Of a DNA stretch of 64,000 nucleotides, positions 24,547 to 42,327 are shown one piece after another (positions within the stretch are counted from its first letter, which is position 1; every line of letters starts with the position of its first letter). Position numbers and translations under genes: made by a program. This DNA is from Escherichia coli (GTDB lineage: Bacteria; Pseudomonadota; Gammaproteobacteria; Enterobacterales; Enterobacteriaceae). Where the stretch lies: the NCBI RefSeq assembly GCF_024502345.1, contig NZ_JALDNN010000001.1, one strand, 5' to 3'. The notes under the pieces are model-generated. The model made no database searches, was not told the DNA's origin, and saw nothing but the letters and a program-made list of their open reading frames with translations.

Positions 24547-25017
24547 ATGTTAAAAAAATTAATAACTTTTTCTGCCATCCTGTGTACGGGACAAGCATGG
24601 GCTGCATGTGTGGATGGTGCAGCTGGCCCAAACGGCGTAGATAGTGCCACCGAAGGTAGTACCTGCGATAACAGCGGTACGTCATATATAGGGAATAATA
24701 CCGCTTATGCGAGCGGGTCAGGTTCTGTTCTTAATTTCTTACCTGGAACTGTAATCAGTAGTAATGGTGTTGCTGCCGTTTATACGCTTGCCGTGGGAGG
24801 AGTCAATAGTGGCGGTTCGATCCCTGGAGCTGGAGCAACGGTTCATGCAAAAGGAGATTTAACAGTTAATGGGAATGCTCTGGGCAGTACTCGGAGTATT
24901 TTTATCTTTTCTGGTACAGATGCAGGGGGAAAACGTAACTCACTTCAGATAGATGGAAACCTGACTGCAACGAGGACTGGCGGTCTTTATGGGGCTGTTA
25001 TAGGTGATAATGCCTGA
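24547..25017 (+). pseudogene. Autotransporter/adhesin-like secreted protein, N-terminal fragment (signal peptide plus Gly/Ser/Thr-rich beta-helix-like region)
   Basis: Signal peptide MLKKLITFSAILCTGQAWA followed by G/S/T/N-rich repeats; ORF ends where the antisense integrase fragment begins. Confidence 0.4.
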
Positions 25018-25743: not shown

Positions 25744-25792
25744 TGGTGCCCGGACTCGGAATCGAACCAAGGACACGGGGATTTTCAATCCC
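25744..25792 (-). tRNA. tRNA-Phe (pheV/pheU type), 3'-terminal 49 nt only; island attachment-site remnant
   Basis: TGGTGCCCGGACTCGGAATCGAACCAAGGACACGGGGATTTTCAATCCC is the reverse complement of the tRNA-Phe 3' end including CCA; homology stops inside the anticodon arm. Confidence 0.8.
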
Positions 25793-26069
25793 TTTAAAAG
25801 AGCCCAAACGATCCATCAGCACTAACAGTTTTTTACTGGTTTACCTTGAGAAAAATGTTTAAGTTTGGTTCTTCATGACTTAAGTATTGCTTAAATACGG
25901 CGTTTCGAAGCTACCAGAATCCTACCATTATGAGCCTATACCCATAGAAGAGAAATTATCTCCCGTTCTCGCGATTCAATGACTAAAAATCAGACGGTGC
26001 AGGCTTTTAGATACTGATATTATATCTTTTGGGTAAAGTATTAATCTCTGTTGAGATAGGCTCTTAGCC

Positions 26070-26414
26070 CTAAAATAGCCGAGCAGCAAACGCCAAAACA
26101 ACAATACTAACATTACCATTAACTGTCGCGATGGTTCTGAGTCGATCGTCTTTAAGTGTTTTACCATCAAATGTTGCGATGGTGCGGAGTCGATCGTCTT
26201 TCAGGGTCTTGCCATCAAAGGTAGCGATGGTGCGGAGTCGGTCGTCTTTCAGGGTTTTACCGTCAAAAGTTGAGATGGTTCTGAGCCGGTCGTCTTTCAG
26301 GGTTTTACCGTCAAACGTTGCGATGGTCCTGAGCCGGTCGTCTTTCAGGGTTTTACCGTCAAAGGTAGCGATGGTACGGAGTCGATCGTCTTTTATAGTT
26401 ACGCTCATAAGCAT
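26070..26414 (-). CDS. Small protein made almost entirely of ~5.5 tandem 16-aa repeats (DGKTLKDDRLRTIATF)
   Basis: ATG at 26414 preceded by AGGAG at 7-nt spacing; the overlapping plus-strand ORF lacks an SD. Confidence 0.5.
   Translation of the reverse strand: MLMSVTIKDDRLRTIATFDGKTLKDDRLRTIATFDGKTLKDDRLRTISTFDGKTLKDDRLRTIATFDGKTLKDDRLRTIATFDGKTLKDDRLRTIATVNGNVSIVVLAFAARLF
26127..26395. repeat. 48-bp direct tandem repeat array, ~5.5 copies, slightly degenerate
   Basis: Unit cgatggtNNNgagNcgNtcgtctttcagggttttaccNtcaaaNgtNg repeated head-to-tail. Confidence 0.85.
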
Positions 26415-26629
26415 TCTCCTGTGATACGTCCGTTCAGCACTTTACCATCCAAAATCAAGCACTGGTTTCTGTGAGTTCTGGACGCTAATTGTCTGAATCA
26501 GCGATTAAAACTCATCCAGTTAGCATTAACATTAACCAGCGCCTCATCGATCATAACAGGTCTGATGCAGGTTAAAAGATACAATCTTACCCATAAATTG
26601 CGGTAGCGCATTGTTCTTTTATCTGACAT

Positions 26630-29600
26630 CTAGAGGTGTCCTCCAACCCCTTTAAATTTTTCGATAAATGCCCCAATTTTCTGGAATACAGTCTGCTTTT
26701 TCGTTTTGTACTGAGGATTCAGCGGACTGAGCTTTGGTAGCGTCTCATTTAGCTCCGTCCCATTTTCGGTGGCATACTCCCGTTTTAGTGATGTGCGGAT
26801 ATAGCGCCTTGCAGCCTCTTCATTGAGGTTTTCTTCCTTAATCAACGCCTCTGCTTCCCGTTGCTGTTCACGCTGAGCATAGGTAAAGAATGCATCAATG
26901 ATACTGGCCTTGTCCGGCATGTCATCAAGGTTAGTTTGCTGAATAAAGTCAACAATCAGACCTTCTTTGGCACGGTTGCCCAGACTTGAGCGGATTAAGC
27001 GTCTGACCTCTTCAGTCAGGGCTTCTTTACCTTTTTTCTGACGATTGTGGTCGAAAATCAGACCAAGGATGTAATCCAGGTTAATTTCCTGCGACTTCAG
27101 CAGGTCAATTTCAAACACCACGTCATCCCAGTCTGTGGTTGATTTATCCCTGTCGTTTGATGCTTTTTCGCGTCGCTGCCAGTCCCGGATATCATTGTAT
27201 GCTGAGCGATAGTCCTGAACTTTACGTTCTGCCGGGAGACGAATGGTTTGTAATTCAGCAAATTTTTCATCATCCACATAGTGCTCTGCTTTAAAGGTTT
27301 CTACCGCTTCCGGGTCACTAATATCAACCTTCTGCAGGGCTTTCAGCGTGGCAAATTCATCATAGTTTTGCAGGATGTTTTCTGCCCGCAGATATTCACC
27401 AAACAGTTTGACGAAGGCTTTTTTCTCTTTTTCACTGTCGATACTGGCAGGGTCAGGGAAGCGCTGCTCCAGCTCAGAGACAACAGCCATAAAACCTCGT
27501 TTAGCCTCACCGGTTGCCGCATCGGTAAAGCCCTGCATGTACTCTTCGTAGCTTTTTTCCAGCACCACATTCTTGGTGTTTTTGTCGCCGAAAAGTGTGA
27601 TGGCATCAATGGTCGGACGCTCCAGGTCCCTGAAAGTCACGATATTGCCGAAGGTTTTGGTTGCATCATAGATACGGTTGGTGCGTGAGAATGCCTGCAT
27701 CAGACCGTGATAACGCAGGTTTTTGTCAACGAACAGAGTATTGAGCGTCGGAGCATCAAAGCCAGTCAAGAACATTCCCACCACGATGAGAAGGTCAATA
27801 TCCTGATTTTTCACTCGTTGAGCTAAATCGCGGTAGTAGTTCTGGAAACCGTTACTGTCGGTGCTGAAATTGGTTTTAAAGTGGTTGTTATAGTCATCAA
27901 TGGCTGAATCCAGGAATTCCTTTGCGCTGCTGTTCATTGCACTGGTATCAAAACTTTCGTCGGTAATATCACCAATAGCGCTTTGCTCTTCATTAGCAGC
28001 AAAAGAGAAGATGGTTGCCACACGAAGACGTTTATAGCTGCCAGATTTCTTCTCAGCTTCTTCCTGTAGCATTTTAAATGTCGTGTAATAAGCTTTTGCC
28101 GCGTCCACGCTGCTCACTGCTAACATGGCATTGAAGCCTTTTGCTCCCGGGAAGGTACGATGCGTTTTCTGGCGGAAGTTATTGAGAATGTATTGCGTTA
28201 TTTCCTGGATACGCAGTGGGTGCAGAAAGGCCTGGTGGTTTTCAGCCGCGCTGAGTTTTTTCTCATCAGTTTCCGTTTCAAGAGACTTAAACTGTGGGCG
28301 GACATCGTTATAGTCCACCTTAAACTTCAGCACTTTTTCATCACGAATCGCATCAGTAATGACGTAAGAATGTAATTCACGCCCGAAGACGCTGGCGGTG
28401 GTTTCTGCCCCCAGTGCGTTTTCCGGGAAAATAGGTGTACCGGTAAAACCAAACTGATAAAAGCTTCTGAATTTCTTTTTGAGGTTTTTCTGGGCCTCAC
28501 CAAACTGGCTGCGGTGACACTCATCAAAGATAAACACAACCTGCTGCTGATAGACGGGCAGGTCAGCTTCGGCTTTCATCAGGTTATTGAGTTTCTGAAT
28601 GGTTGTGACGATAATTTTGTTATCGTCCTTATCCAGGTTTCTTCTGAGGCCAGCTGTATTATCCGAACCATTCACACTGTCCGGAGAGAAGCGCTGATAC
28701 TCCTTCATGGTCTGGTAATCGAGGTCTTTCCTGTCGACCACGAAGAAGACTTTATCAATAAAGTCCAGCTCGGTTGCCAGACGTGCGGCCTTAAAACTGG
28801 TCAACGTTTTACCGCTACCTGTGGTATGCCAGATAAACCCGCCGCTTTCGGGTTTTGACCAGTTCTTCGCTTTAAATGAGCTGTTAATTTTCCAGAGGAT
28901 TCGCTCAGTGGCAGCAATCTGATAGGGGCGCATGACGAGCAGCGTCTGGCTGCTGTCAAACACGCTGTAATTAAACAGAACATTCAGCAGAGTATGCTTC
29001 TGGAAGAAAGTGGCGGTAAAGTCCTTCAGGTCCTTAATCAGAGTGTTATCCGACTTTGCCCAGTTCATGGTGAAATCAAAGCTATTTTTATCCCGTTTAG
29101 TGGTACTGGCAAAGTACCGGGTATCAGTCCCGTTGGAAATCACGAAGAGTTGCAGGTATTTAAACAGGGAGTTATCGCTGTTAAAGCTTTCCTTGCTGTA
29201 ACGGTGTATCTGGTTAAAGGCTTCACGAATCGCCACACCGCGTTTTTTGAGTTCGATTTGCACCAGTGGAAGGCCGTTGACCAGAATGGTGACGTCATAA
29301 CGGTTAGCGTGTGAGCCAGTCTGCTCAAACTGCTGAATGACCTGCACCTTATTGCGCAGCAGGTTCTTTTTATCTATCAGATAGATGTTTTCCAGACGAC
29401 CATCATCAAACGTAAAATCACAGATATAGTCGATATGGATTTTACGGGTTTTGTCCAGGCTGCTGTCACTGGGACTGTCCAGATACTGCTCTGCGAAGCG
29501 CCGCCATTCACTTTCGTTAAACACCACACCATTAAGACGCTGAAGCTGGTCTCGCACATTCGCCAGCATCGCAGCCGGTGACTTAACGGAGATAAACTCA

Positions 29601-29746
29601 TACCCCTGATTAAGAAGGTCTTGAATCAGCTCCCGCTCAAGGTCCGATTCGCTCTGGTAACTCTCACCAGTTTCCTGAGCTTTAGAGTACTTATCAAGGA
29701 CGATAAAGTTATTGGATTCAGCAATAGTATGTGTCTGTTGTGTCAT
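26630..29746 (-). CDS. hsdR: Type I restriction enzyme R subunit (HsdR)
   Basis: 1038 aa; DEAD/DEAH-type helicase motifs (TGSGKT, DECH) in an HsdR-like architecture. Confidence 0.9.
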
Positions 29747-29861
29747 GGTGCATCCTGTGCGTCATCTGGCAAAGTCCGGAAGGGTATCAGAAACATCATC
29801 CGGCACTCGTAAAGCCTGATACCGGTAGGTGAAAGCAGACACTGCCGGTATCAGTGGCCTG

Positions 29862-31087
<1,226 letters not shown>

Positions 31088-31091
<4 letters not shown>

Positions 31092-32644
31092 TTCTGCACC
31101 TCGCAGCCTTCAATTTCAGCCACAATCGCATCAATATCTTTGCGCAACTGGTCGATTTTGCTGACCGTGGTTTTCAGCTCTGCATTCAACTCAGCGATAT
31201 CGATAATTTCGCGAGTATCTTTCGCTTCCACATAGCTGCTCACCGACAGGTTATAGTCATTCGCGACAACAGTCTCAAACGCAACAGATTTCGCCAGATG
31301 AGCAACATCTTCCTTGCTGGCAAATACCTGCATAATTTGTTCGATATGGGCATCGGTCAGGATATTGTTGTTGGTCTCTTTTTTGAATAGTTCACTGGCG
31401 TCAATAAACTGAACTTTGGTATCGGTTTTATGTTTAGACAACACCAGAATATTGACGGCAATAGTGGTGCCAAAGAACAGGTTCGGTGCCAGTGAAATCA
31501 CGGTTTCGACATAGTTATTGTCAACCAGGTACTGTCGGATTTTCTGCTCTGCACCGCCACGGTAAAAAATACCGGGGAAGCAAACTATTGCTGCACGCCC
31601 TTTAGCAGACAGGTAGTTCAGCGCATGTAGGACAAATGCAAAGTCCGCTTTTGATTTCGGGGCCAGTACACCAGCTGGAGCAAAGCGCTCATCGTTAATC
31701 AGGGTCGGGTCGTCACTGCCAATCCACTTAACCGAGTACGGCGGGTTAGAGACAATCGCATCGAACGGTTTTTCATCGCCAAAGTGAGGCTCAGTCAGGG
31801 TATTCCCCAGTCTGATATCAAATTTGTCGTAGTTGATGTTGTGCAGGAACATGTTCATACGCGCCAGGTTAAAGGTTGTATGATTTATCTCCTGACCATA
31901 AAAACCTTCTTCAATGATATGGTTATCAAAGTGCTTCTTCGCCTGAAGCAGCAGTGAACCAGAGCCAGCGGCAGGGTCATAGATTTTGTTGACGTGAGTC
32001 TGACCGTGCATCGCAAGCTGAGCAATCAGCTTGGAGACGTGCTGAGGTGTGAAGAACTCCCCTCCAGACTTACCGGCATTTGCCGCATAGTTAGAAATCA
32101 GGAACTCGTAGGCATCACCAAACAGGTCAATCTGGTGCTCGTTAAAATTCCCCAGGTTAAGCCCTTCAACGCCTTTCAGAACGGCGGCAAGACGGCTGTT
32201 TTTGTCTTTAACTGTGTTACCCAGTCGATTGCTGGTCGTATCGAAATCGGCGAACAGGCCTTTGATGTCGGCCTCGGACGGATAGCCGTAGGCAGAGCTT
32301 TCTATAGCGACGAAGATACTATTTAAATCAGCATTCAGCCTGTCGTTGGTGTTCGCTTTAGCGGCAACGTTGCAGAACAGCTGGCTCGGGTAGATGAAAT
32401 AGCCTTTAGTCCTGATGGCATCGTCTTTGATGTCATCGGTAATGATGCTGTCATCAAGTGCTGCATAATGTATGCTCTCATCCCCTGCTTCCATGTAGCT
32501 GGAAAAATTCTCACTGATGAAGCGGTAGAAAAGTGCACCGAGTACATACTGTTTAAAATCCCATCCATCTACTGAGCCCCTGACATCATTGGCAATGGCC
32601 CAGATTTGACGGTGTAGCTCTGCACGCTGTTGAAGGCTTGTCAT
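31088..32644 (-). CDS. hsdM: Type I R-M N6-adenine DNA methyltransferase subunit (HsdM)
   Basis: 518 aa with NPPY catalytic motif ([10 protein letters not shown]); stop overlaps hsdS start. Confidence 0.9.
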
Positions 32645-32847
32645 TTTGTATCCTGTTGTATGATTCTTAAGTACTGTTATTGGCCCGATTTTATCGCAAT
32701 TTCATATGGATGACAGGCTTTGTATGTCATGCGTTGCACTGAGAGTTCGTTTGCCCGGTTGTGTAGCCAACACTCTTTCAGTCAGGCCAGTAGAAACGTT
32801 GCGCTGACGATAAATACTGAAGCCCCAATACCATCGGGGCTGAACGT

Positions 32848-34725
32848 TCAGTCGGTGAGAATTTCTTCATCCGTATCCATTGTGGATGGTGATGAATCTA
32901 TTTTTGTTGTAAGAAATACCCGATTCAGTAGTCTTTGCTTCAGGGCGTTTCTTCGCTCATTGTAGAATTCCGGGAAGTGACTGAACTCAATATTTTCATC
33001 TGAAACTAACAGCATTGATGGCGAATAGTTGTTTGATGGCTGAGATAGCCATTGTTTCAGGGAAGTATCCTGTTTACTTATATTCTGAGAGTGATTCAGT
33101 AAATGAAGATTCGGTATGGTGTCCCAGTATTCCGGATTTTCATAAAAGCTGAGCTTCTCAGGTGAATTCGCAATATAATCTAGTTTTTCAAGATATTTCT
33201 TTGAAAAATGATTTCTTGGGTGAAGGTGATCAATATGAAATACCTCGGTTGGATTCATTTCAGGGAACAGAAGATGCAATAGTGCGCGGCAACGACCTTC
33301 GCCATATCTGATATTGAGAAGGCTTTCGATGTATTCGTCGTCAAATCTGAGGTCTTTATTCGAGCCTTTATATCTGTCAATAATCTTTTCAAGAGGAAAG
33401 TGAATATCTGAAAGACTATTTTTCATTACCTCTCTGATACTCGTGAGTAGCGCATCTGCCTGGCTTCCAAAGATCCCTTTCAGAAGTACCATGTAAAACC
33501 ACTGGCTAATTACTGAGCGTTCATTGTGGTTTTTATTCAGGAGGTTAATCGTTGTATATAATGGATGTCCACTGGTTTGCTTTTTGTAAAGCCAGTAGAC
33601 CACAGGAATGACTGCATTTTTAGATATCAAAGACTGTGGATTGATGCCGAATCGCCTGATAAGAATAAAGGTCTCCTTGATACAGGATTTTATTTCAGAC
33701 CATTGTTGTTGTATCTTACCGACCTCCTCTGAAGTGAAGTTTTTTACTTTGAACCGGACGTCAGAGTCAATAAGCATCAGGCTGGTTTTTAAGAACCAGT
33801 CTCTTTCAATATAAAAACCCATTTCATTATTCTGATAAATGTTTTTTGTCAGTTCATCCAGTTCTCTTCTGAAATCCCCCTGCCAGTGCGCTACCGCTAT
33901 TGACATCAGTAAGTCTGAAAACTCAAGTTTTGTCCCCCCGCTGTTCGTGCGGATGAAAACATCCAGCACATGATCAATGTCCTGACTGCTCTCATTGAAG
34001 TAGTGGATAAGATTCTCAGTTCTTATCTTGGTATAAAGTTTAAGCAGAGTTTTTCTGGAAAATTCACTGGAAATGAGATCTCTTTTTTCAAGTTCTGGTA
34101 CGACAACGTTAAATAAAATATCATCAGGCGAATCATGTTGCTCGTATTTGAATATTTCGTGCAGGCAGAACCAGTGATGTTTGTTGTCTGTAAGTGAATC
34201 AGCGTATTGCTTGTCGGTCAGGAACCTGAAGTTATACTTCATCATGAGTTCGTCGTCTGACTTAAGTGGCGCGGTTAAATCGACGTAAAGCTTTCTGGGC
34301 GGCAGGATGCGATCATCCTGTGCCGAAGGCCACCACATCCGGGGCTGTTTATACGCATACGTTCCACACAATCCAATATATAATGATGTGAGACGCTGCT
34401 GACCATCAATCACCGCTTTGAAATCATGAAATCCAGCATTTGTTGCTACGCAGGGGTTTTCTTCATTAAATCGCTGACAGTATTCTTTCAGGAATTCATA
34501 GAATTTGTAATCATTTTTAATACTGGCACTACGGATATCCCACATCATGAAAGAGTTTATCGGGTAGTCTCGCATGATGGAATCAAACAGCAAACATATC
34601 TGACTGCTGCTCCAGACGAACTTCCTCTGAATTGCAGGCAGAAGATAGTGGCGTAAATTAATTGAATCTATCGCTTGTTTTATCGTTATTGCTTTTTCAT
34701 ACTGGCCAGCCATCATAAACCTCAT
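32848..34725 (-). CDS. DUF262 (ParB/GmrS-like) plus DUF1524 (His-Me finger, GmrD-like) two-domain protein; candidate Type IV (modification-dependent) restriction or defense nuclease
   Basis: 625 aa; N-terminal ...IQRKFVW...VIDGQQRLTSLYIGL; C-terminal HIDHLHPRNHFSKK; AT-rich coding sequence. Confidence 0.75.
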   Translation of the reverse strand: MRFMMAGQYEKAITIKQAIDSINLRHYLLPAIQRKFVWSSSQICLLFDSIMRDYPINSFMMWDIRSASIKNDYKFYEFLKEYCQRFNEENPCVATNAGFHDFKAVIDGQQRLTSLYIGLCGTYAYKQPRMWWPSAQDDRILPPRKLYVDLTAPLKSDDELMMKYNFRFLTDKQYADSLTDNKHHWFCLHEIFKYEQHDSPDDILFNVVVPELEKRDLISSEFSRKTLLKLYTKIRTENLIHYFNESSQDIDHVLDVFIRTNSGGTKLEFSDLLMSIAVAHWQGDFRRELDELTKNIYQNNEMGFYIERDWFLKTSLMLIDSDVRFKVKNFTSEEVGKIQQQWSEIKSCIKETFILIRRFGINPQSLISKNAVIPVVYWLYKKQTSGHPLYTTINLLNKNHNERSVISQWFYMVLLKGIFGSQADALLTSIREVMKNSLSDIHFPLEKIIDRYKGSNKDLRFDDEYIESLLNIRYGEGRCRALLHLLFPEMNPTEVFHIDHLHPRNHFSKKYLEKLDYIANSPEKLSFYENPEYWDTIPNLHLLNHSQNISKQDTSLKQWLSQPSNNYSPSMLLVSDENIEFSHFPEFYNERRNALKQRLLNRVFLTTKIDSSPSTMDTDEEILTD

Positions 34726-34786
34726 ATGTTATATTAGCTGGCCTATTTTAATTTATTGCGTGTCGGTAGTACAGTCTTTGCACAAA

Positions 34787-35116
34787 CTAATTTATGCAAT
34801 GGAAAAGCTGACGGCTCGGTTTGTGTTTTTCATTCGGGTAGACTCGCATTGCGGATGCACAAAGTGATGAAACCTGTCTTGCTATATTTTTACCGAAGTT
34901 AACAAGAAGGCCGTGCTTTATTTTTTCACCCTCTGCCCTGATGCTGATGATAAAGCTGAACTGATATACGATTACCTCAATGAGGTCATTGCCAAATGTT
35001 ATAATGGCGGCGTTGTTTATTTCATGTTCATAATCCCTCAGGTCAGTGTTAAGTCTTGCTGTTGCATCTACAAGTGCGTATTCTTTATCGATAATCATAA
35101 CTTTCTCACTTATCAT
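34787..35116 (-). CDS. Small hypothetical protein between the WYL regulator and the DUF262/DUF1524 gene
   Basis: ORF of 109 codons co-oriented with flanking genes; start uncertain (MISEKV or MIIDKEY); no family recognised. Confidence 0.3.
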   Translation of the reverse strand: MISEKVMIIDKEYALVDATARLNTDLRDYEHEINNAAIITFGNDLIEVIVYQFSFIISIRAEGEKIKHGLLVNFGKNIARQVSSLCASAMRVYPNEKHKPSRQLFHCIN

Positions 35117-35156: not shown

Positions 35157-35870
35157 TTAATTACGATTATTCGTCTGTTTACTCCCGTAATGCATTATCT
35201 TATGAATAATGTTCATGTGGGGTAAGGCTTCCATAAAGTCAGACTGTTCAATCAGCGAAATGAGTGTGTTATCGATCTCAAACGTTGTATCCGGTAATAC
35301 CTCAACCAGCCTGATTCGGGACAGGGAAATAACGAACACGCCCGATGACGTACATCCGGCAAGAAACCACTCCGCATGGCTGCAAAGCAGACGGTAGGGA
35401 TGAACGGTATGGCTGACGTTTTCGTCGGTTCTGATACGCACCTGGGTCTGGTTAAGTATGGCGAGCGTCAGTCTGCTGAAATCACCGAAAAGGGTGGGTT
35501 TCTGGCGCGGCTCCGGTAGCATAATCCTGTATGGCGAGGGACGTTCCCCGTCAAGCATCAGGCTCAGTAGTTTGGCATCCATCGCGGGTAACAGACGGTC
35601 AAGATGCAGCAACCTCGCCAGTATCTTCATATCCCGTTCCGTGCGGCGACGAAAGTAATGTGAGGCAAGCTGATACACGCCGTTGCTCTGTTCAATATCA
35701 AGGTAGGTCAGACGGACGTTGAAATCCCGTCGCAGCGTTCGCGTCGTCACTCCAAATTCTTCTGCCAGCGTCCCGATATGCAGCTTTTCACCCTGAAACA
35801 AACGGCTCAGGATGATGGAAAGGCGGGTTGCCAGTCTGTCATGTTCGTTTTCTTGTGTTATCAGCGTCAT
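35157..35870 (-). CDS. HTH plus WYL-domain transcriptional regulator (YfjR / BrxR-like)
   Basis: 237 aa; N-terminal HTH LHIGTLAEEFGVTTRTLRRDFN, C-terminal ligand-binding-type region. Confidence 0.7.
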   Translation of the reverse strand: MTLITQENEHDRLATRLSIILSRLFQGEKLHIGTLAEEFGVTTRTLRRDFNVRLTYLDIEQSNGVYQLASHYFRRRTERDMKILARLLHLDRLLPAMDAKLLSLMLDGERPSPYRIMLPEPRQKPTLFGDFSRLTLAILNQTQVRIRTDENVSHTVHPYRLLCSHAEWFLAGCTSSGVFVISLSRIRLVEVLPDTTFEIDNTLISLIEQSDFMEALPHMNIIHKIMHYGSKQTNNRN

Positions 35871-35972: not shown

Positions 35973-36266
35973 CTAAACGTCAGTATTCTCAGGTGAATAA
36001 AGATGCTTCTGGCGCATGTAGGCAATAAAAATGCAGGATGGTAGCGTCACCCGGTATGCGGGACCGGCTAAATCAATCAGCAGCCAGAGAGAACTGAGCA
36101 CCCAGCCCACGGGACCGGCAAAAGCGCCCATGGTACGCGTCAGCATGGCATTTCCTGCAACGGTCAGCCCTCTGCCTAACAGGGCTTTCGCCACACCATT
36201 TGTGACAACAAGTGCCATCTGATAGGCCGCAAACCCGGATGTTTTAATCCCCGCCTGGATTGCCAT
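35973..36266 (-). CDS. Hypothetical membrane-associated protein; possibly the 3' half of a frameshifted gene
   Basis: 97-aa ORF starting 2 nt after the stop of the upstream ORF, different frame. Confidence 0.3.
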   Translation of the reverse strand: MAIQAGIKTSGFAAYQMALVVTNGVAKALLGRGLTVAGNAMLTRTMGAFAGPVGWVLSSLWLLIDLAGPAYRVTLPSCIFIAYMRQKHLYSPENTDV

Positions 36267-36268: not shown

Positions 36269-36589
36269 TCAGCAGCTCCGGCGTGGGATTGCTGTATCGC
36301 AGACGATACCGAGCAGGAGATACCAGCCATCATCAAGTGCGGTGACGTATTCCGGGTTAGCCAGTGCCACTGCCAGCAGCGGGTCTTCGGGGAGTGTGTC
36401 ATCGTGGTTGAGATGCCAGAGCAGGGTTCCCGTTTCGTTCCAGAAGGCGGTAAACAGGTCGATATCATCGACAGGGCCAAGGATTTCATTGCTGAGGGCC
36501 ACCAGTGCGGAGGCGGGCAGGTTGAGAAGGGGAAGACTGGTGGGAGTCGTGAGTTTAAACATGATTATCTCCATAAGTAATTGATTCAT
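36269..36589 (-). CDS. Hypothetical protein; possibly the 5' half of a frameshifted gene
   Basis: 106-aa ORF immediately upstream of 35973-36266 on the same strand. Confidence 0.3.
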   Translation of the reverse strand: MNQLLMEIIMFKLTTPTSLPLLNLPASALVALSNEILGPVDDIDLFTAFWNETGTLLWHLNHDDTLPEDPLLAVALANPEYVTALDDGWYLLLGIVCDTAIPRRSC

Positions 36590-37081: not shown

Positions 37082-38404
37082 ATGAAACCCGATAGTTCTT
37101 TAAACCAAATAACGCAGACAATGAAACGGAATGATGTTGATTCTGTGGATAGTCGCTTTTTTGAGTCAGCGCAAAACATGAAAACCAGCGTTGACGTTGA
37201 AGATTGCTGCGTTGAAGTGATGGTTCGACATCACAGCCCAAAGAATCAAAGAGAGGCATTCACTAAAGCTTTTTTTGATGAGTGTAAAATCCGTGCAGTA
37301 CAAACTGGCCGGACTATCGAAGCCAGCGATACAAAATGTACCGGGCTTAAGGCTATATTCCACTCATCCGGACGCATTAAGTTTATTGTCCGCAAAAGTA
37401 TTCGCGGAAAGAATGTTTACGTTGCAGTAGGAAGTTACCCTGAATTTTCCATTAATAACGCAAGGGAACATGCCTTTAAAATAATTCAGGAGCTTAAGGC
37501 TTCCGTTGAGACTTATGGTGAGCGTTTTCTTACGCACAGCAAAATAACGTTTAATGAACTTGTGGAACAGTATGTGAAATGCGTACTTAACACGGGCGTT
37601 AAGCGTTCAGCTAACACCGACCTTTCTAAGATCCGTAAATACCTGCGCCCTCTTCTCGGTGACAAAAAGCTGGCAGGTATGACGGAGGCAGATGTTCTGA
37701 GCTATCTACACGATCTCGATCTTAAGCCTGCCACACGCAACCGCCACCTGGCGCTCATTAAAGCGGTCTTTACCTGGGCTATACGCATGGGATACACCAG
37801 CCGCTCTCCGGCGCTTTATATCAAAGCGCTGCCTGAAGTGACGTCAGATCGCCGCGCCATGGATGACTCCCAGCTTCAGCGCTGGATGGAAGTCTGTGAG
37901 TGCTGGCGTAATGGTAAACCCGATCATGAAGCCCTTGCTCTGCTCATGTTCCTTGCCCTGACGGGGCTGCGTCTGGGGGAAACCCGTCACCTTCGTCTTG
38001 AAGATGTGGACTGGAGCCGCAAGGTTATCACCCTTCGCCATACCAAAAACGGCAAACTCCGCCGTGTACCGGTATGTGATAAGGCTTTCGTTCTTCTGAC
38101 AGAACAGCGTCAGCATCTGGGTGATGAAGGCTGGGTATTTCCGGGCAAGGGGACCGACAATCCGGTTTCTGAGCCGCGTCGCCTGCAAAAACGGCTTTGT
38201 GAGGCTGCGGGTATTCCACCGTTCACCATCCATGAGATGCGCCATACCTTTGCGACAAAACTCATTGAGAGCGGGGCCGACATTCACACCGTCAAAGACT
38301 TACTGGGCCACAGCACTATCAAAGTGACGGAGCTTTACTTGCACGCTTCCCCGGCGCGTTACCACGAAGCTGTTAACCGGGCGATGAATGTTTTTCCGGC
38401 CTAA
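37082..38404 (+). CDS. Tyrosine site-specific recombinase / integrase (not P4-type)
   Basis: 440 aa; C-terminal catalytic signature ...FTIHEMRHTFATKLIESGADIHTVKDLLGHSTIKVTELYLH. Confidence 0.8.
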   Translation: MKPDSSLNQITQTMKRNDVDSVDSRFFESAQNMKTSVDVEDCCVEVMVRHHSPKNQREAFTKAFFDECKIRAVQTGRTIEASDTKCTGLKAIFHSSGRIKFIVRKSIRGKNVYVAVGSYPEFSINNAREHAFKIIQELKASVETYGERFLTHSKITFNELVEQYVKCVLNTGVKRSANTDLSKIRKYLRPLLGDKKLAGMTEADVLSYLHDLDLKPATRNRHLALIKAVFTWAIRMGYTSRSPALYIKALPEVTSDRRAMDDSQLQRWMEVCECWRNGKPDHEALALLMFLALTGLRLGETRHLRLEDVDWSRKVITLRHTKNGKLRRVPVCDKAFVLLTEQRQHLGDEGWVFPGKGTDNPVSEPRRLQKRLCEAAGIPPFTIHEMRHTFATKLIESGADIHTVKDLLGHSTIKVTELYLHASPARYHEAVNRAMNVFPA

Positions 38405-38476
38405 ACAGAATTCCCCCTCAGGCAAGTGAGTTCTGCGCTTTACTGCCTGTGGTTCACATTCAAAAGGAACCTGTAA

Positions 38477-39172
38477 ATGAATAATAAATCAACACCATCC
38501 CCCTTGACTACAACGACCCCCGCTCGTTTTGCCTGCAGGAAATTAAATGCATTTCTGGCTCGTCGTGCTCTTCATATGAAGGTGGTAAGAAAAAACCTGA
38601 ACAAGGCTGCTGCAATCGACATCGATCTCGATGACATTTCTAAGTGCGGATGCCGTGATGGTCTGCCTGAAGGCTTTGTCAATACTGCAAAAGGGCTTTT
38701 CTATTATGAAGGAAAAAAATGGTACCAGTTAAGCTCGACCCCCATTCTCCCTGTCTACAGGCATTATTCTGATTGTAAAACGCGCAATATGGGCGTCGAG
38801 TTGATGACTATCAACCATGCTGGAGAGTTCGCCTGTGCTGATGTCTCATTAAGTGATGCAATGGTAAAACCTGATCACGTCATGGCTTCTCTGGCGGGCA
38901 AAGGTTTTGGTATCTCCCTGACGATAAAGTCTAAAGAGCTTCTGGTGCAATTCTTACAGGTGTGTATGAAGAAATCGCTGGAATTGCCTACTTATCTTGT
39001 CGCAGATTCGATGGGTTTTGTGCCTGGCAACAAAGCATTTCTTCACGGCAGTATACCTATCGCGCAGCACCTTTTGGAATTTGACTATTTGATTCCGGCT
39101 TCCCGTGTTCCACGAGGGCTTGTCGAGTCGGGAACGCTGGATGACTGGAAAACGATGGTACCTGTGAAATGA
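38477..39172 (+). CDS. Hypothetical protein downstream of the integrase
   Basis: 231-aa ORF with AAGGA-type SD; 3' end overlaps convergent ORF 39085-39468. Confidence 0.4.
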   Translation: MNNKSTPSPLTTTTPARFACRKLNAFLARRALHMKVVRKNLNKAAAIDIDLDDISKCGCRDGLPEGFVNTAKGLFYYEGKKWYQLSSTPILPVYRHYSDCKTRNMGVELMTINHAGEFACADVSLSDAMVKPDHVMASLAGKGFGISLTIKSKELLVQFLQVCMKKSLELPTYLVADSMGFVPGNKAFLHGSIPIAQHLLEFDYLIPASRVPRGLVESGTLDDWKTMVPVK

Positions 39173-39468
39173 ATCCATTCTGATTCACCGAAGTCACTGG
39201 TCTGGTGTGACAGCGAGTACAGCCAGGCGTTATCCTTTTCCGTGATATGTGCGGTACTGCAGCGTATGCCGGCAAGGGTTGCAAACGGTGGTAGTGTGCA
39301 GGTTGACTGTTGGTCGGATTCCTCCACCACGCGGAGTGAATAACCGTTTTCAGCGACCTTGTTAATCAGTTCAGTGAGATTAACACCATCGACATCAACG
39401 ACAATTCGCCCCATGTTCAGTGCCTGCACATTAATGCTGTCGGCTTCCAACGTCAGGGCCAGTTTCAT
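39085..39468 (-). CDS. Hypothetical small protein downstream of the WYL regulator
   Basis: ATG at 39468 preceded by GGAGG; C-terminal extent uncertain because of overlap with 38477-39172. Confidence 0.4.
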   Translation of the reverse strand: MKLALTLEADSINVQALNMGRIVVDVDGVNLTELINKVAENGYSLRVVEESDQQSTCTLPPFATLAGIRCSTAHITEKDNAWLYSLSHQTSDFGESEWIHFTGTIVFQSSSVPDSTSPRGTREAGIK

Positions 39469-39577
39469 TGTTTCGCCTCCGGATGCTTCCCCTGGGTAAT
39501 GTTATTTACCGTTCTGTAGTTATCGCGGGTCATCAGGCCGGTTGCCCTGCGAGCCCGGAGAATATCAATACTGTTTA

Positions 39578-40228
39578 TTAACTGAGAGCGGGTAAGGACT
39601 GAATAAATCCCGGGTCTTCAACAAGACGACACAGACTGTCGTTACGCCGGAAAGTCTCCTGCAGGGGCTGAACCAGATGGATTTCATCCAGGGAGAATAC
39701 GGCGATATGTCCGTCGTGCTCTGCCACCAGATACCAGGCCTGCTGGTGGATAAGTAACCGGCAGGGAGCCAGCCGCTCACAGCGCTGCCCCTCGGCAATC
39801 AGAGTCACCCGCCTGCGCCCGGTAATGGCCTGAATCAGTCGCCAGAAAGACAATGCGCCTGATGGCGAAGGAGCCGGACTGGCGGGTGCGATTACGCAGG
39901 GAGACTCATCGCACATCAGCAGTGCGTTTACCAGACGACGGTCAAAGCCAGGGAAAAGACCGGCCATCCCGCTGCGGTGGGCAAAGATAAGCACGTCGGG
40001 CACCATCTGCGTCTCACTGCCCGCAGTGCGTAAGCGGTAATATCCGGACTGATACTCCAGGTCCAGATACATCAGCCGCTCACGAAAATCACGCCGCAGC
40101 GTGCGCACCGACACACCAAACTCAGCGGCAAGCTTACGCACACTCAGCGTTTCCCCTGCCACCAGACGGCTGATTATCAGTGACAGCCTGACAGCCAGCC
40201 GGTCATGGCGGCGTTCTGCCTGTGTCAT
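39578..40228 (-). CDS. HTH plus WYL-domain transcriptional regulator (YfjR-like), paralog of 35157-35870
   Basis: 216 aa; [28 protein letters not shown]; same architecture as the first WYL regulator. Confidence 0.7.
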
Positions 40229-40444: not shown

Positions 40445-41266
40445 TCACTGCAGTTGCGTGAGCAGGGCTTCCGCCATCACCCACAGTGCCCGGTTAAGTT
40501 TCACGTCCCCGTCGATACCGCGAACGGCACGGGTATGTGACCGTCCTCCTTTGGCATTACGGCCACTGAGCCCGCCCTTAATCAGGTTCTCCTGAATACG
40601 CTGGTACGTGGTCCACAGGTCATTGCTCTCATCCTGCCAGCGGCGAGGGGAGAGGATCTGCGATTCAGTCACCGGCTGGTGGTCTTCACCAAAGCGGTAT
40701 GTGAGGGCGGCTTTTGCCAGTGCCTGCTGTGCCGGGGGTGGCAACAGCAACGACTGCATGGCATCCCGTTTCTCCTCCACCCGGTCAAAAATCCCCAGCA
40801 CCTCATACGCGCCTTCAATCACCTGACTCACCACGTCCCCCTTGTGTGGCACCCGCACCTCGCCAAACGACTCACCGCAGACGAGCCCGTTCTGACAAAC
40901 CGCACGAAATAGTCCCGGCAACATCTGATACGAACTAGTGCCATCGTGGGAGTTGAGCAGGATAATTTCTGGTACCTGTTTACCGGTAATCTGCCCCTCA
41001 CGCCGCAGACGCAGCATATGCTTTGTATGTTCACGACGACCGGGGTCACGCACGCGGGTCTGACAGGCAAAGAATGGCTGGAAGCCTTCTCGCTGTAGGC
41101 TGTCGAGCAGGGAGATGGTAGGTATATAGGTATAACGCTCACTGCGGGATTCATGTTTGTCCTCGCTGAATACACTGGGCACCACGCGAAACAGCTCCTC
41201 ACGGGTTAACGGGCGGTCGCGACGGATAAGGTTTGCTGCGCCAAAGCGCGAAGCCAGACGGGTCAT
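40445..41266 (-). CDS. DUF932-family protein (YfjQ-like)
   Basis: 273 aa from MTRLASRFGAANLIRRDRPLTREELF; sits in the YfjP-YfjQ-YfjR order of CP4-type islands. Confidence 0.6.
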   Translation of the reverse strand: MTRLASRFGAANLIRRDRPLTREELFRVVPSVFSEDKHESRSERYTYIPTISLLDSLQREGFQPFFACQTRVRDPGRREHTKHMLRLRREGQITGKQVPEIILLNSHDGTSSYQMLPGLFRAVCQNGLVCGESFGEVRVPHKGDVVSQVIEGAYEVLGIFDRVEEKRDAMQSLLLPPPAQQALAKAALTYRFGEDHQPVTESQILSPRRWQDESNDLWTTYQRIQENLIKGGLSGRNAKGGRSHTRAVRGIDGDVKLNRALWVMAEALLTQLQ

Positions 41267-41357
41267 AAGCAGACTCCTCATAATGGGAAAACAAATAAAA
41301 GAAATCCCCGTCGCATCGGCGACAGGGTTAGGGAAATAACAGGGATGGGTTAAATAC

Positions 41358-42221
41358 TCAGAAGAAGAAATCCCAGACGGCACGGGCCACTGACACCACG
41401 GTGGTGCGCACGGCCTGAATGACGGCCCGCACCGGGGCGGGGATCAGGGGAAAGGCACTGATGCTATCGAGTACAGCACCGACGGTTTCACCAAAATCGC
41501 TACGCGCCTGTTCCCGGACTACCGTCGTGCGAAAGGAAGGCTGGAGTTGCGACACCACCGGGCTGGTGGCCTCACGTGGCAGGCACTTAATCATTCGCTC
41601 GGCCATCACCCGCAGTCCCCACTGAAGACGGACCGACACGGCACACACTGGATGTACGGGCTGGAACAGCTCATGCAGCAGGCAGATTTTGCGGCTGATA
41701 TTCTGCTTCTGCGCCGTGGACAACTGTCCCCCACCGCTGGTAGGTTCGGCCTTATCCGACTGGCTGATAACAAACAGCACCTTATGCCGGTATACCTCTC
41801 CAATCACCTGATGATAAAAATGTTCATCCACCGTCAGCGCCCGGTCATCGGCCTTAATCAGCCACAGTACCAGGTCGAGGCGAGGAAGCTGTTCGCGGTA
41901 CAGCGCAGCATACTCGGTATCGCGAGCACCACTTTCGCCCACGCCGGGCAGATCCATCAGCGTTATATAGCGGTCGCCAACCTGCAGGCGAAAGCGCAGT
42001 GGCTCACGTGTACAGGCCGCCACATCGCTGACCGGTGATACCTCACTGGCAAACAGGGCATTGCAGAGTGAGGATTTACCGGCACCGCTCTTACCCATAA
42101 TGCCGATCACTGGCTCGTAGCGGGTTAACTGATTTATCTGCTGCAATATACGTTCAGACACCCACTGTGGCAGACCAGCGAGCGATTGCTGAAACGGCTT
42201 CAATCCTTCAGAATTGTTCAT
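41358..42221 (-). CDS. YfjP/YeeP/YkfA-family GTPase
   Basis: 287 aa from MNNSEGLKPFQQ; P-loop GIMGKSGAGKSSL and DLPG motif. Confidence 0.7.
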   Translation of the reverse strand: MNNSEGLKPFQQSLAGLPQWVSERILQQINQLTRYEPVIGIMGKSGAGKSSLCNALFASEVSPVSDVAACTREPLRFRLQVGDRYITLMDLPGVGESGARDTEYAALYREQLPRLDLVLWLIKADDRALTVDEHFYHQVIGEVYRHKVLFVISQSDKAEPTSGGGQLSTAQKQNISRKICLLHELFQPVHPVCAVSVRLQWGLRVMAERMIKCLPREATSPVVSQLQPSFRTTVVREQARSDFGETVGAVLDSISAFPLIPAPVRAVIQAVRTTVVSVARAVWDFFF

Positions 42222-42327
42222 TACTACTCCTCTGAAAAATAATACAAAAACGGCAGAATCGTGAGATTCCACCGTTAATCTGGTATGTTCAAAGGGATGA
42301 TATATATCTGAAAATTATTAACTTGAT

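What the first reader, a model, noticed from the sequence alone, without database searches (positions are those of the whole stretch)
37082..39468. Non-P4 tyrosine integrase followed by an unknown gene that overlaps a convergent small gene by 88 bp
The integrase has a clear catalytic C-terminus but an unusual N-terminus, and no tRNA or attachment site is apparent nearby. The 231-aa gene after it and the convergent 127-aa gene (GGAGG SD) overlap by 88 bp, which suggests a truncation or a frameshifted end in one of them.
Basis: seen in the sequence. Interest (0 to 1): 0.3.

Follow-up and report, generated by a model that had tools for sequence, protein, structure and literature searches.

The report
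Deletion scar inside decayed pheV genomic islands
The two overlapping small genes are the cut-off front ends of two unrelated genes joined by a recent deletion between neighbouring E. coli genomic islands, and the intact integrase beside them is a stranded internal recombinase of one of those islands, so the finding is ordinary island decay.

Summary
In detail: the three ORFs and the 88-bp overlap sit exactly where stated. The overlap has no biological meaning.

- **231-aa ORF.** It is residues 1-228 of a 643-aa DUF927 (Cch/SaPI-Rep-like) helicase plus 3 foreign codons.
- **127-aa ORF.** It is residues 1-103 of a 162-aa DUF5983 protein plus 24 codons read antisense through the helicase fragment.
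- **Junction J1 (39159-39160).** The two fragments meet at a 2-bp (TA) junction. It was absent from 5,426 complete E. coli genomes and from the metagenome collection scanned.
- **Neighbouring scars.** Two more deletion junctions lie nearby, at 36295-36296 and 39590-39594.
- **Integrase.** It is intact and identical in protein sequence to the copy in an undamaged island. It has an arm-type N-domain, a central domain and a catalytic domain, but only 21% identity to P4 Int. Its "odd" first ~50 residues are unconserved and probably not part of the protein.
- **Island family.** The integrase is the internal recombinase of a conserved Enterobacterales island at tRNA-Phe. That island carries two integrases, the helicase, a DUF2787/LRAT/WYL backbone and defence cargo.
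- **Attachment site.** The island's 49-bp distal tRNA-Phe repeat is at 25744-25792. The tRNA-proximal end has been deleted.

Low interest.

The parts
24940..25548 (-). N-terminal 202-aa fragment of a classic P4-type integrase (arm and central domains, no catalytic domain). It is the remnant of a further island lying directly beside the tRNA-Phe repeat.
   Evidence: Pfam Arm-DNA-bind_3 100.9 bits and Phage_int_M 86.3 bits, with no Phage_integrase hit. IS3-family transposase debris lies to its left.
25744..25792 (-). 49-bp exact copy of the 3' end of tRNA-Phe. This is the distal attachment repeat (attR-type) of island A.
   Evidence: The 23-mer matches exactly once, with 0 expected by chance. 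The contiguous match to the tRNA 3' end is 49 nt, and the island-side flank (CTTTTAAAGGG) is the same as at the distal end of the complete island L014 and similar in L013.
25793..35116 (-). Variable defence cargo of island A: a 5-fold beta-flower protein, type I restriction-modification genes (HsdR 26630-29746, HsdS, HsdM 31088-32644), a GmrSD/DUF262 nuclease (32848-34725) and a 109-aa hypothetical.
   Evidence: Pfam. Collinear with the annotated island in WCHEC025943, L001.
35157..35870 (-). HTH/WYL regulator (237 aa), a backbone gene of island A.
   Evidence: Pfam HTH_DeoR and WYL. The same 237-aa gene is present in relatives carrying the full backbone (L001, L003, L006-L010, L014-L017).
35973..36266 (-). 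C-terminal fragment of the DUF3944 (JukA-like) backbone gene, cut by junction J0.
   Evidence: The window matches L001 only up to 5939, inside the 249-aa DUF3944 gene. The full-length protein hits PADLOC JukA at 1.9e-72.
36295..36296 (.). Junction J0: a 2.76-kb deletion inside island A with TA microhomology. It removed the 127-aa hypothetical, the DeoR-like gene, LRAT, DUF2787, the 143-aa hypothetical and parts of two flanking genes.
   Evidence: blastn breakpoints and a three-way sequence comparison.
36269..36589 (-). N-terminal fragment of the 117-aa backbone hypothetical, running across J0.
   Evidence: The match to L001 starts at 8696, inside the gene at 8610-8963.
37082..38404 (+). Intact tyrosine integrase, the internal recombinase of island A. 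The longest ORF is 440 aa; the conserved protein probably starts at M47 (ATG 37220), giving 394 aa.
   Evidence: Pfam. The catalytic residues R297, K322, H384, R387, H410 and Y419 are invariant in alignment A1. There are 0 amino-acid differences from the copy in the intact island L001. Residues 1-52 are unconserved or absent in homologues.
38477..39172 (+). Truncated DUF927 (Cch/SaPI-Rep-like) helicase gene: residues 1-228 of 643 plus 3 foreign codons. The Walker A motif and ATPase region are lost.
   Evidence: 228/228 identical to L001 residues 1-228. The full-length protein matches PDB 5DGK and 8TCH and NCBIfam SCCmec_Cch1 over residues ~175-378. The GGSTTGKT motif is visible at about residues 264-271 of the full-length protein.
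39159..39160 (.). Junction J1: the fusion of island A (inside DUF927) to island B (inside DUF5983), with TA microhomology.
   Evidence: Absent from 5,426 complete E. coli genomes and from JGI metagenome contigs.
39085..39468 (-). Truncated DUF5983 gene: residues 1-103 of 162 plus 24 codons read antisense through the DUF927 fragment.
   Evidence: 103/104 identical to the 162-aa protein of L002. Pfam DUF5983_N is complete, while the C-terminal domain covers only positions 3-41 of 90.
39465..39594 (-). 3' fragment (about 43 codons) of a cbtA-family toxin gene. Its stop codon overlaps the DUF5983 start (ATGA).
   Evidence: Features annotated under the match; gene coordinates in L004; blastn mapping.
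39590..39594 (.). Junction J2: a 3.55-kb deletion inside island B with GGGTA microhomology. It removed the 5' part of cbtA, the antitoxin gene, DUF987, the JAB/RadC gene, the antirestriction gene, DUF905, ykfB, the yfjS-like gene, ypjK and the end of yfjR.
39578..40228 (-). Truncated YfjR-like WYL regulator: residues 1-213 of 233 plus 3 foreign codons.
   Evidence: 213/213 identical to the 233-aa protein of G3/10.
40445..42272 (-). DUF932 (YfjQ-like) and GTPase (YfjP-like) genes of the CP4-type island B, 100% identical to strain G3/10.
   Evidence: Pfam; blastn 100% over 39590-43572; annotation.

Best explanation
The region is a recent deletion scar between two genomic islands that sat in tandem in the pheV region of an E. 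coli chromosome.

**Island A (25744-39160).** It belongs to a conserved Enterobacterales island family that integrates into tRNA-Phe. Read from the distal end, an intact member contains:
- a 49-bp tRNA-Phe repeat;
- variable defence cargo;
- a backbone of a WYL regulator, DUF3944/JukA-like, LRAT, DUF2787 and small orphan genes;
- then, transcribed in the opposite direction, an internal integrase and a DUF927 Cch/Rep-like helicase;
- a convergent second integrase, more cargo, and the tRNA.

**Island B.** It is a CP4-type island with yfjP, yfjQ, yfjR, cbtA and DUF5983.

**What happened (inferred order).** An illegitimate deletion with 2-bp microhomology removed several elements. These were the last two thirds of the helicase gene, whatever lay between the two islands, and the 3' end of DUF5983. 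By analogy with intact relatives, the lost middle part held the tRNA-proximal integrase, an att repeat and the distal genes of island B. Each broken gene now reads into foreign DNA until a chance stop codon, and that produces the 88-bp 'overlap'. Two further microhomology deletions, J0 and J2, flank the region.

**Consequences.** The integrase is undamaged but stranded. Its helicase partner lacks the ATPase, the tRNA-proximal att site is gone, and only one tRNA-Phe repeat remains in the window. The island can therefore presumably no longer excise or replicate.

**Shown versus inferred.** Shown here: the truncations, the junctions, the family membership and the att remnant. Inferred: the tandem ancestor, the single-deletion origin of J1, and the loss of mobility.
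For: **ORFs and overlap.**

**Truncations.** The 231-aa ORF is 228/228 identical to the start of a 643-aa DUF927 protein. The 127-aa ORF is 103/104 identical to the start of a 162-aa DUF5983 protein. The YfjR-like ORF is 213/213 identical to the start of a 233-aa protein.

**Breakpoints.** Mapped by blastn and three-way comparison. J0 is at 36295-36296 (TA), J1 at 39159-39160 (TA) and J2 at 39590-39594 (GGGTA).

**Uniqueness of J1.** No place in 5,426 complete E. coli genomes spans it. An exact 34-mer across it is absent from JGI metagenome contigs.

**Recency.** The integrase and the helicase fragment each differ from the intact island L001 by one synonymous change.

**Family synteny.** The gene order is conserved in E. 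coli, Edwardsiella and Rosenbergiella records, in records of further Enterobacterales and in metagenome contigs, down to 42% integrase identity.

**Complete islands.** L013 (13.9 kb) and L014 (17 kb) are bounded by tRNA-Phe repeats. The same 49-bp repeat with a similar island-side flank is at window 25744-25792.

**Tandem model.** Strain G3/10 carries an A-type backbone, then a 23-bp tRNA-Phe repeat, then island B in the same order and orientation.

**Helicase identity.** PDB 5DGK at 3.4e-15, PDB 8TCH at 2.3e-7 and NCBIfam SCCmec_Cch1 at 3.3e-19.

**Literature.** GI-pheV is described as mosaic and deletion-prone (PMC11537424).
Against: - No sequence of the ancestral tandem array is available for this strain, so a single deletion at J1 is the most economical reading, not a demonstrated one. 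A recombination between pheV- and pheU-borne islands followed by rearrangement would give the same junction.
- Three junctions within 3.3 kb is a lot. An assembly or construct artefact cannot be excluded from the sequence alone, although 2-5 bp of microhomology is not what repeat-driven misassembly produces.
- Loss of mobility was not tested. The window ends at 64 kb, so a tRNA-Phe gene could lie beyond it.
- Which of the two integrases acts at tRNA-Phe in intact islands is unknown.
Confidence: 0.9

Rival explanations
1. The two small genes are genuine, full-length convergent genes whose 3' ends overlap by design, for example for antisense or transcriptional-interference control.
For: Both ORFs have start codons and the 127-aa ORF has a good GGAGG ribosome-binding site.
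Against: Both are exact N-terminal pieces of longer, well-conserved proteins of 643 and 162 aa. Similarity to each homologous locus stops at the same 2-bp point. The two genes belong to different islands elsewhere, and the junction occurs in no other genome searched. The ribosome-binding site is simply the native DUF5983 one, coupled to the cbtA stop codon.
Confidence: 0.01
2. A frameshift or point mutation in one otherwise complete gene created the overlap.
For: Overlapping ends are a common signature of frameshifts.
Against: Downstream of the junction there is no DNA similarity, in any frame, to the remainder of either gene. The remaining 1.2 kb of DUF927 and 179 bp of DUF5983 are physically absent.
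Confidence: 0.01
3. The junctions are artefacts of assembly or of a chimeric record, and the real chromosome carries intact islands.
For: There are three junctions within 3.3 kb. The region is rich in repeated island modules and IS elements. J1 was seen nowhere else.
Against: The junctions have only 2-5 bp of shared sequence, not repeats of read or k-mer length. Both sides are otherwise near-identical (99% and above) to real islands in a consistent order and orientation. Microhomology deletions are the expected mode of island decay (established knowledge; see also PMC11537424).
Confidence: 0.05
4. J1 was made by the integrase itself, through aberrant site-specific recombination between a secondary site in DUF927 and one in DUF5983.
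For: An intact tyrosine recombinase gene lies 760 bp from the junction.
Against: The crossover shares only TA. Neither side resembles the 49-bp tRNA-Phe attachment sequence. J0 and J2 have the same microhomology character and lie in unrelated sequences.
Confidence: 0.03

Closest known systems
GI-pheV / GI-pheU mosaic genomic islands of E. coli (PMC11537424)
   Same: The region lies beside the glc-yghJ chromosomal segment next to the pheV region. It has a tRNA-Phe 3'-end direct repeat, a P4-type integrase remnant, a 'yee'-type module (cbtA/DUF5983), IS debris and module deletions. Loss of att repeats is linked there to shortened, fixed islands.
   Different: That paper defines the islands by the tRNA-adjacent intP4 gene and 19- or 23-bp repeats. 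Island A here uses a 49-bp repeat and carries a second, internal integrase plus a DUF927 helicase, and the passages I read do not mention these. No pheV gene or adjacent intact intP4 is present in the window.
Pipolins of Gammaproteobacteria (PMC11551731)
   Same: By the paper's description these are bimodular integrative islands at a tRNA gene. They have two tyrosine recombinases, DUF2787, a WYL protein and orphan genes as a conserved core, one replication gene, and variable defence cargo (type I R-M and others) at the distal side. The paper also notes 'piPolB-less, pipolin-like islands'.
   Different: No primer-independent PolB is present. A DUF927 helicase occupies the replication-gene position. 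Both integrases here are arm-domain types, whereas pipolins have IntSXT plus IntP2. The target is tRNA-Phe, not tRNA-Leu. I did not test direct sequence homology of the backbone to a pipolin.
DUF927 proteins of mobilizable genomic islands (MGIVchHai6, MGIVflInd1; PMC4958241, PMC7449626)
   Same: A DUF927 gene sits in the recombination module of integrative islands that often carry type I R-M cargo.
   Different: Those islands insert at trmE or yicC, have one integrase plus Xis/RdfM and MobI, and are driven by IncC or SXT activators. In MGIVchHai6 the DUF927 gene was dispensable for mobilization. None of those partner genes was seen here.
SCCmec Cch helicase (PDB 5DGK) and the staphylococcal pathogenicity-island protein (PDB 8TCH)
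   Same: The full-length relative of the 231-aa ORF matches both over its central region of about 160-200 residues (E 3.4e-15 and 2.3e-7). This fits a self-loading replicative helicase of an integrative element.
   Different: Similarity is confined to the central region. The window copy stops at residue 228, before the Walker A motif, so it cannot be an active helicase.
CP4-type cryptic-prophage islands with the CbtA/CbeA toxin-antitoxin and a DUF5983 gene
   Same: The gene order GTPase, DUF932, WYL regulator ... cbtA, DUF5983 is 99-100% identical to the island in strain G3/10.
   Different: 3.55 kb, including the antitoxin and most of the toxin gene, is deleted at J2. DUF5983 is cut at codon 103, and the distal genes (DUF957, DUF4942) and the repeat are missing.
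Phage P4 integrase
   Same: Tyrosine recombinase of about 400-440 aa with an arm-binding N-domain, a central domain and a catalytic domain.
   Different: Identity is only 21% over 268 residues. The gene is not next to its att site but inside the island, convergent with a second integrase. No closer phage integrase exists in the phage collection (31.5% identity or less).

Membership tests
Tyrosine recombinase (Phage_integrase, PF00589) | C-terminal catalytic domain scoring above the Pfam threshold | tested here: met
   110.7 bits against a 27.1-bit cut-off, residues 260-424.
Tyrosine recombinase (Phage_integrase, PF00589) | Catalytic residues R, K, H-x-x-R, H/W and the tyrosine nucleophile | tested here: met
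   R297, K322, H384, R387, H410 and Y419 are invariant across 17 sequences including P4 Int.
P4-type / arm-domain (DUF4102) integrases | N-terminal Arm-DNA-bind_3 domain | tested here: inconclusive
   23.7 bits, below the 27-bit cut-off, at residues 80-139. The domain is on record for most close homologues, and the region aligns at 31-38% identity to genuine arm domains.
P4-type / arm-domain (DUF4102) integrases | Central Phage_int_M domain | tested here: met
   28.1 bits against a 27-bit cut-off, residues 157-244.
P4-type / arm-domain (DUF4102) integrases | Gene lies directly next to the tRNA attachment site | tested here: not met
   In every intact relative a DUF927 gene and a second integrase lie between it and tRNA-Phe. 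The window contains no tRNA gene.
P4-type / arm-domain (DUF4102) integrases | Clear sequence similarity to P4 Int | tested here: inconclusive
   21% identity, E 8e-7, covering residues 114-355 only.
DUF927 / Cch-like replicative helicase (the 231-aa ORF) | Complete DUF927 domain | tested here: not met
   19.4 bits, below the 22.6-bit cut-off, covering profile positions 24-161 of 284. The full-length relative scores 116.6 bits over positions 24-276.
DUF927 / Cch-like replicative helicase (the 231-aa ORF) | P-loop ATPase region homologous to Cch | tested here: not met
   The Cch-homologous region is residues 214-373 of the full-length protein, with GGSTTGKT at about 264-271. The ORF ends native sequence at residue 228.
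DUF5983 (the 127-aa ORF) | N-terminal domain PF25638 | tested here: met
   105.6 bits, profile positions 1-54 of 56.
DUF5983 (the 127-aa ORF) | Complete C-terminal domain PF19419 | tested here: not met
   Only profile positions 3-41 of 90 are covered. Native sequence stops at residue 103 of 162.
Pipolin | Primer-independent PolB gene, the hallmark according to PMC11551731 | tested here: not met
   The precomputed Pfam lists show no polymerase family on any gene in the stretches shown for the relatives' loci. In the window, the ORFs of island A that were scanned gave none.
Pipolin | Core of two tyrosine recombinases, DUF2787, a WYL protein and orphan genes near the integration site, with distal defence cargo | tested here: inconclusive
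   The gene content is present in intact relatives, but homology to actual pipolin core genes was not tested. In the window DUF2787 is deleted (J0) and the second integrase is missing.
GI-pheV (PMC11537424) | pheV tRNA gene with an adjacent intact intP4 | tested here: not met
   The window has no tRNA gene. The only classic P4-type integrase is a 202-aa fragment.
GI-pheV (PMC11537424) | Direct repeat derived from the 3' end of tRNA-Phe, in the pheV chromosomal region | tested here: met
   A 49-bp repeat that includes the canonical 23-mer. The chromosomal flank runs from the yghQ-like gene through the glc operon to a truncated yghJ, up to 20510.
tRNA-Phe dual-integrase DUF927 island family (defined here from relatives) | 49-bp tRNA-Phe repeat with a CTTTTAA(A)GGG island-side flank | tested here: met
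   window, L014 and L013.
tRNA-Phe dual-integrase DUF927 island family (defined here from relatives) | Complete backbone, internal integrase, full DUF927 gene, second integrase and tRNA-Phe | tested here: not met
   The backbone is cut by J0, DUF927 is cut by J1, and the second integrase and the tRNA are absent.

The most novel reading that the evidence does not exclude
The integrase/DUF927 pair marks a family of Enterobacterales defence islands at tRNA-Phe that may not yet have been described as such. Its features would be:
- a 49-bp att repeat;
- two arm-type tyrosine integrases in convergent orientation around a Cch/Rep-like helicase;
- a DUF2787/LRAT/WYL/JukA-like backbone;
- at least three cargo slots.

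On this reading the family is the helicase-bearing counterpart of pipolins. The internal integrase would have a job other than tRNA integration, for example cargo exchange or resolution of replicated copies. The integrase-helicase block is about 65-70% identical at the DNA level between islands whose backbone is 91-94% identical. No E. coli genome has the backbone without this block. The window holds only a decayed copy, so this would have to be studied in intact relatives.
Probability: 0.3. Interest if true: 0.45.

Novelty: new member of a known kind. Interest (0 to 1): 0.15.

Why it matters
It matters little for biology and somewhat for annotation.
- The 231-aa and 127-aa ORFs, the 216-aa YfjR-like ORF and two ORFs at J0 should be called pseudogene fragments, not genes.
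- The apparent antisense overlap should not be interpreted.
- The case is a clean worked example of how microhomology deletions between tandem tRNA-associated islands create chimeric ORFs and strand an intact integrase.
- The side product of wider use is the outline of a conserved island family at tRNA-Phe with two integrases and a helicase. About 2.4% of complete E. coli genomes (130 of 5,426) carry sequence from one or both of its two probe genes. The family resembles pipolins but carries a different replication gene.

Tried and rejected
- **J1 elsewhere.** Megablast of a 241-bp junction-spanning query found no place covering both sides in 5,426 E. coli genomes. An exact 34-mer scan of JGI metagenome contigs gave 0 hits.
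- **Nested-element idea.** I asked whether the integrase-DUF927 block is an independent element inserted into the backbone. A concatenated query of the 117-aa backbone gene plus the 3' end of the second integrase found no 'empty-site' arrangement in any E. coli genome, so I rejected the idea for E. coli.
- **Direct link to pipolins.** The 50%-identical E. coli DUF2787 homologue P0131 turned out to sit in an unrelated context, with no polymerase family on record for any gene shown. The pipolin comparison therefore rests on the paper's description only.
- **True start codon of the integrase.** None of the ATGs at 37082, 37121 or 37220 has a convincing ribosome-binding site. The three closest loci are identical there, so they give no information. 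M47 is favoured only by alignment with the 387-396-aa homologues.
- **Promoter/terminator scan of 36300-39700.** Counts did not differ from shuffles.
- **Phage and plasmid collections.** There is no close relative of the integrase (31.5% identity or less) or of the helicase (27% or less).
- **Invalid comparison.** A codon comparison of the integrase with L003 was invalid because of an indel offset and is not used.
- **Extra att repeats.** No additional tRNA-Phe repeat lies between the second integrase and the tRNA in relatives. The cargo there therefore belongs to the same element rather than to a separate mini-island.
Full report
**1. Observation**

- The ORF listing reproduces the three ORFs at the stated coordinates: 37082-38404 (+, 440 aa), 38477-39172 (+, 231 aa) and 39085-39468 (-, 127 aa). 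The last two overlap by 88 bp.
- The GGAGG upstream of the 127-aa ORF is at 39476-39480 on the minus strand.
- No tRNA gene is found in the window.

**2. What the two small ORFs are**

- Pfam gives the 231-aa ORF only a sub-threshold, partial DUF927 hit. It gives the 127-aa ORF a complete DUF5983 N-domain but less than half of the C-domain.
- Megablast against 5,426 complete E. coli genomes shows that similarity to integrase-plus-DUF927 loci stops at window 39164. Similarity to DUF5983/cbtA loci starts at 39159.
- In the annotated relatives the DUF927 protein is 643 aa (637 aa in a second strain) and the DUF5983 protein is 162 aa.
- The 231-aa ORF is 228/228 identical to the first 228 residues of the 643-aa protein.
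- The 127-aa ORF is 103/104 identical to the first 104 residues of the 162-aa protein.
- A three-way sequence comparison places the crossover at a shared TA, 39159-39160.
- Beyond that point the + ORF reads 3 foreign codons to a stop. The - ORF reads 24 codons on the antisense strand of the helicase fragment. Twelve plus 76 nucleotides gives the 88-bp overlap, so the overlap is a by-product of a junction and not a designed arrangement.
- No genome in the E. coli collection and no JGI metagenome contig contains this junction.

**3. More scars**

- The same mapping shows a second junction, J2, at 39590-39594 with GGGTA shared. It joins the 3' 130 bp of a cbtA toxin gene to a YfjR-like regulator gene that has lost its last 20 codons. 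Relative to strain G3/10, 3.55 kb is missing.
- A third junction, J0, at 36295-36296 with TA shared removes 2.76 kb of backbone genes on the other side of the integrase.
- The integrase is thus the only intact gene between J0 and J1.

**4. The integrase**

*Domains and catalytic residues*
- It has the catalytic domain (110.7 bits), the central Phage_int_M domain (28.1 bits) and a marginal arm-domain hit (23.7 bits against a 27-bit cut-off).
- All catalytic residues are invariant in an alignment of 17 homologues.

*Similarity to other integrases*
- It is 21% identical to P4 Int.
- It is 31% identical over residues 80-426 to the 394-aa arm-domain integrase that sits next to tRNA-Phe in related islands.
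- The nearest phage integrases are 31.5% identical or less.
- 'Non-P4' is therefore fair by sequence but not by architecture.

*The N-terminus*
- Residues 1-52 are only 30-36% identical in relatives whose residues 151-440 are 93-97% identical.
- They are absent from the 387-396-aa family members, whose start codons align with M47.
- The 'unusual N-terminus' is most likely an upstream extension of the ORF or an unconstrained leader. The start codon could not be settled.

*State of the copy*
- The protein is identical to the copy in the intact island of strain WCHEC025943, with one synonymous difference in 441 codons.
- The helicase fragment likewise has one synonymous difference.
- The damage is therefore recent.

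**5. The element it belongs to**

The genomic contexts of homologues from 99% down to 42% identity all show the same layout. They come from E. coli, Edwardsiella and Rosenbergiella records, records of further Enterobacterales and gut metagenome contigs. Reading towards tRNA-Phe at either the speC/yqgA side (pheV) or the dsbD/cadC side (pheU), the layout is:
- variable defence genes (type I R-M with GmrSD, ubiquitin-like Bub-type genes, TIR/ABC-3C, a colicin);
- a backbone on one strand: a ~103-aa hypothetical, a WYL regulator, DUF3944, a 127-aa hypothetical, a small DeoR-like gene, LRAT, DUF2787, a 143-aa hypothetical and a 117-aa hypothetical;
- then on the other strand an optional cargo gene, this integrase and the DUF927 gene;
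- then a convergent second integrase of 392-402 aa with a strong arm domain;
- then 0.4-3.5 kb of further variable genes (SIR2, a deaminase, a SNIPE nuclease);
- then the tRNA.

Further points about the family:
- Two complete islands are delimited by tRNA-Phe repeats: 13.9 kb in L013 and 17 kb in L014. No extra repeat lies between the second integrase and the tRNA.
- The distal repeat is 49 bp in L014, with a characteristic island-side flank that is also recognisable at the degenerate repeat in L013. The same 49-bp repeat and a similar flank are at window 25744-25792. Island A in the window therefore runs from 25744 to J1.
- The full-length DUF927 protein matches the SCCmec Cch helicase structure (5DGK, 3.4e-15), a staphylococcal pathogenicity-island protein (8TCH) and the NCBIfam Cch1 model. 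It is therefore most likely the element's replication helicase. The window copy ends before the Walker A motif.
- No E. coli genome has the backbone joined directly to the second integrase, so the integrase-helicase block is a fixed part of the island.
- That block is much more divergent (65-70% DNA identity) than the backbone (91-94%) between islands.

**6. How the junction arose**

- The right side of J1 is 99-100% identical to a CP4-type island in strain G3/10.
- In G3/10 an A-type backbone, a 23-bp tRNA-Phe repeat and this CP4-type island lie in the same order and orientation as in the window.
- The simplest history is a tandem array of island A, a repeat and island B.
- One microhomology deletion would then have removed everything from DUF927 codon 229 to DUF5983 codon 104. 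By analogy with intact relatives, that stretch held the second integrase and the intervening repeat. This step is inferred.

**7. Wider setting**

- Window 1-20510 is chromosomal: a yghQ-like gene, the glc operon and a truncated yghJ, which is the pheV side of the chromosome.
- Positions 20.5-25.7 kb are IS debris ending in a 202-aa P4-type integrase fragment directly beside the 49-bp repeat.
- To the right of island B lie an IS5-family transposase gene and an island-borne copy of a truncated appC with appB, appA and further genes, as in G3/10.

**8. Comparison with known systems**

- The overall picture matches published descriptions of GI-pheV as a mosaic, deletion-prone island whose repeats are often lost (PMC11537424).
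- By gene content, island A resembles pipolins: two recombinases, DUF2787, a WYL protein, orphan genes, distal defence cargo and one replication gene. It lacks the defining PolB. The pipolin paper itself mentions PolB-less pipolin-like islands (PMC11551731).
- DUF927 genes are also conserved in mobilizable islands of Vibrio, where one was dispensable for mobilization (PMC7449626, PMC4958241).
- I found no paper in the library describing this tRNA-Phe family as such, but the library is incomplete.

**9. Verdict**

The finding is a real feature of the sequence with an ordinary explanation. It consists of pseudogene fragments at a unique deletion junction and an orphaned but intact integrase. Interest is low. 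The only lead of some wider value is the island family itself, which would need to be studied in intact relatives.

Noticed in passing
window 25744-25792 (-) and 24940-25548 (-): A 49-bp exact copy of the tRNA-Phe 3' end is followed directly by a 202-aa N-terminal fragment of a classic P4-type integrase. This looks like the start of a third, almost completely lost island in the tandem array. The fragment is cut off next to IS3-family debris.
   Followed up: partly
window 35973-36266 (-); full gene in L001 5616-6365: The DUF3944 backbone gene of the island family matches the PADLOC JukA model (1.9e-72). None of the neighbouring backbone genes scanned matched any PADLOC model other than WYL, so no JukB-type partner was seen. 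In the window only the C-terminal ~100 residues remain.
   Followed up: partly
L008 vs L014 vs L001; L018 vs L019: Between islands whose backbone and second integrase are 85-94% identical, the internal integrase-DUF927 block is only 65-70% identical. A cargo slot just upstream of the internal integrase holds different genes (398, 389 or 409+112 aa, or none). This suggests block exchange or fast divergence of the recombination/replication module.
   Followed up: partly
relatives L001, L008, L014, L016, L018 (between the second integrase and tRNA-Phe): Variable defence-type genes (SIR2 plus a 667-aa protein, a 576-aa deaminase-domain protein, a SNIPE/T5orf172 nuclease, GmrSD pairs) sit between the tRNA-proximal integrase and the tRNA, with no extra att repeat. 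This is an unusual cargo position between att and int.
   Followed up: partly
window 36860-36965 (+): About 120-220 bp upstream of the integrase ORF lies a 10-bp perfect hairpin (CCTGAAAGTG...CACTTTCAGG) followed by a terminator-like stem-loop with a T-run (36919-36944). The ~570 bp from about 36740 into the start of the integrase ORF is 100% identical in three islands whose integrase regions differ by up to 4%. This may be a regulatory leader.
   Followed up: no
window about 46000-50500; L011 18529-24157 and L004 17860-22262: A truncated appC with appB, appA and a truncated etk-like gene is carried inside the island region, as in strain G3/10. In G3/10 the block is present twice, and one copy is disrupted by IS30 and frameshifts.
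   Followed up: no
window 43605-44573 (+): An IS5-family transposase ORF (322 aa) lies within the stretch 43573-44629, which does not match strain G3/10. G3/10 has 348 bp there, carrying a small HTH (AlpA-like) gene.
   Followed up: no
window 17735-17956 (-) and 20808-20930 (-): Rfam finds the sRNA C0719 in the glc region and isrC within the IS-rich segment just past the truncated yghJ.
   Followed up: no
window 20507-25001: A patchwork of IS30, IS26 and IS3 fragments surrounds a methyl-accepting chemotaxis protein gene. The segment is inverted relative to strain C 236-04A.
   Followed up: partly
L001 9482-10804: RefSeq annotates the integrase in WCHEC025943 as only 276 aa (9974-10804), although the same uninterrupted 440-aa ORF is present. 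The annotated lengths of this integrase in databases (276-478 aa) are therefore unreliable.
   Followed up: yes
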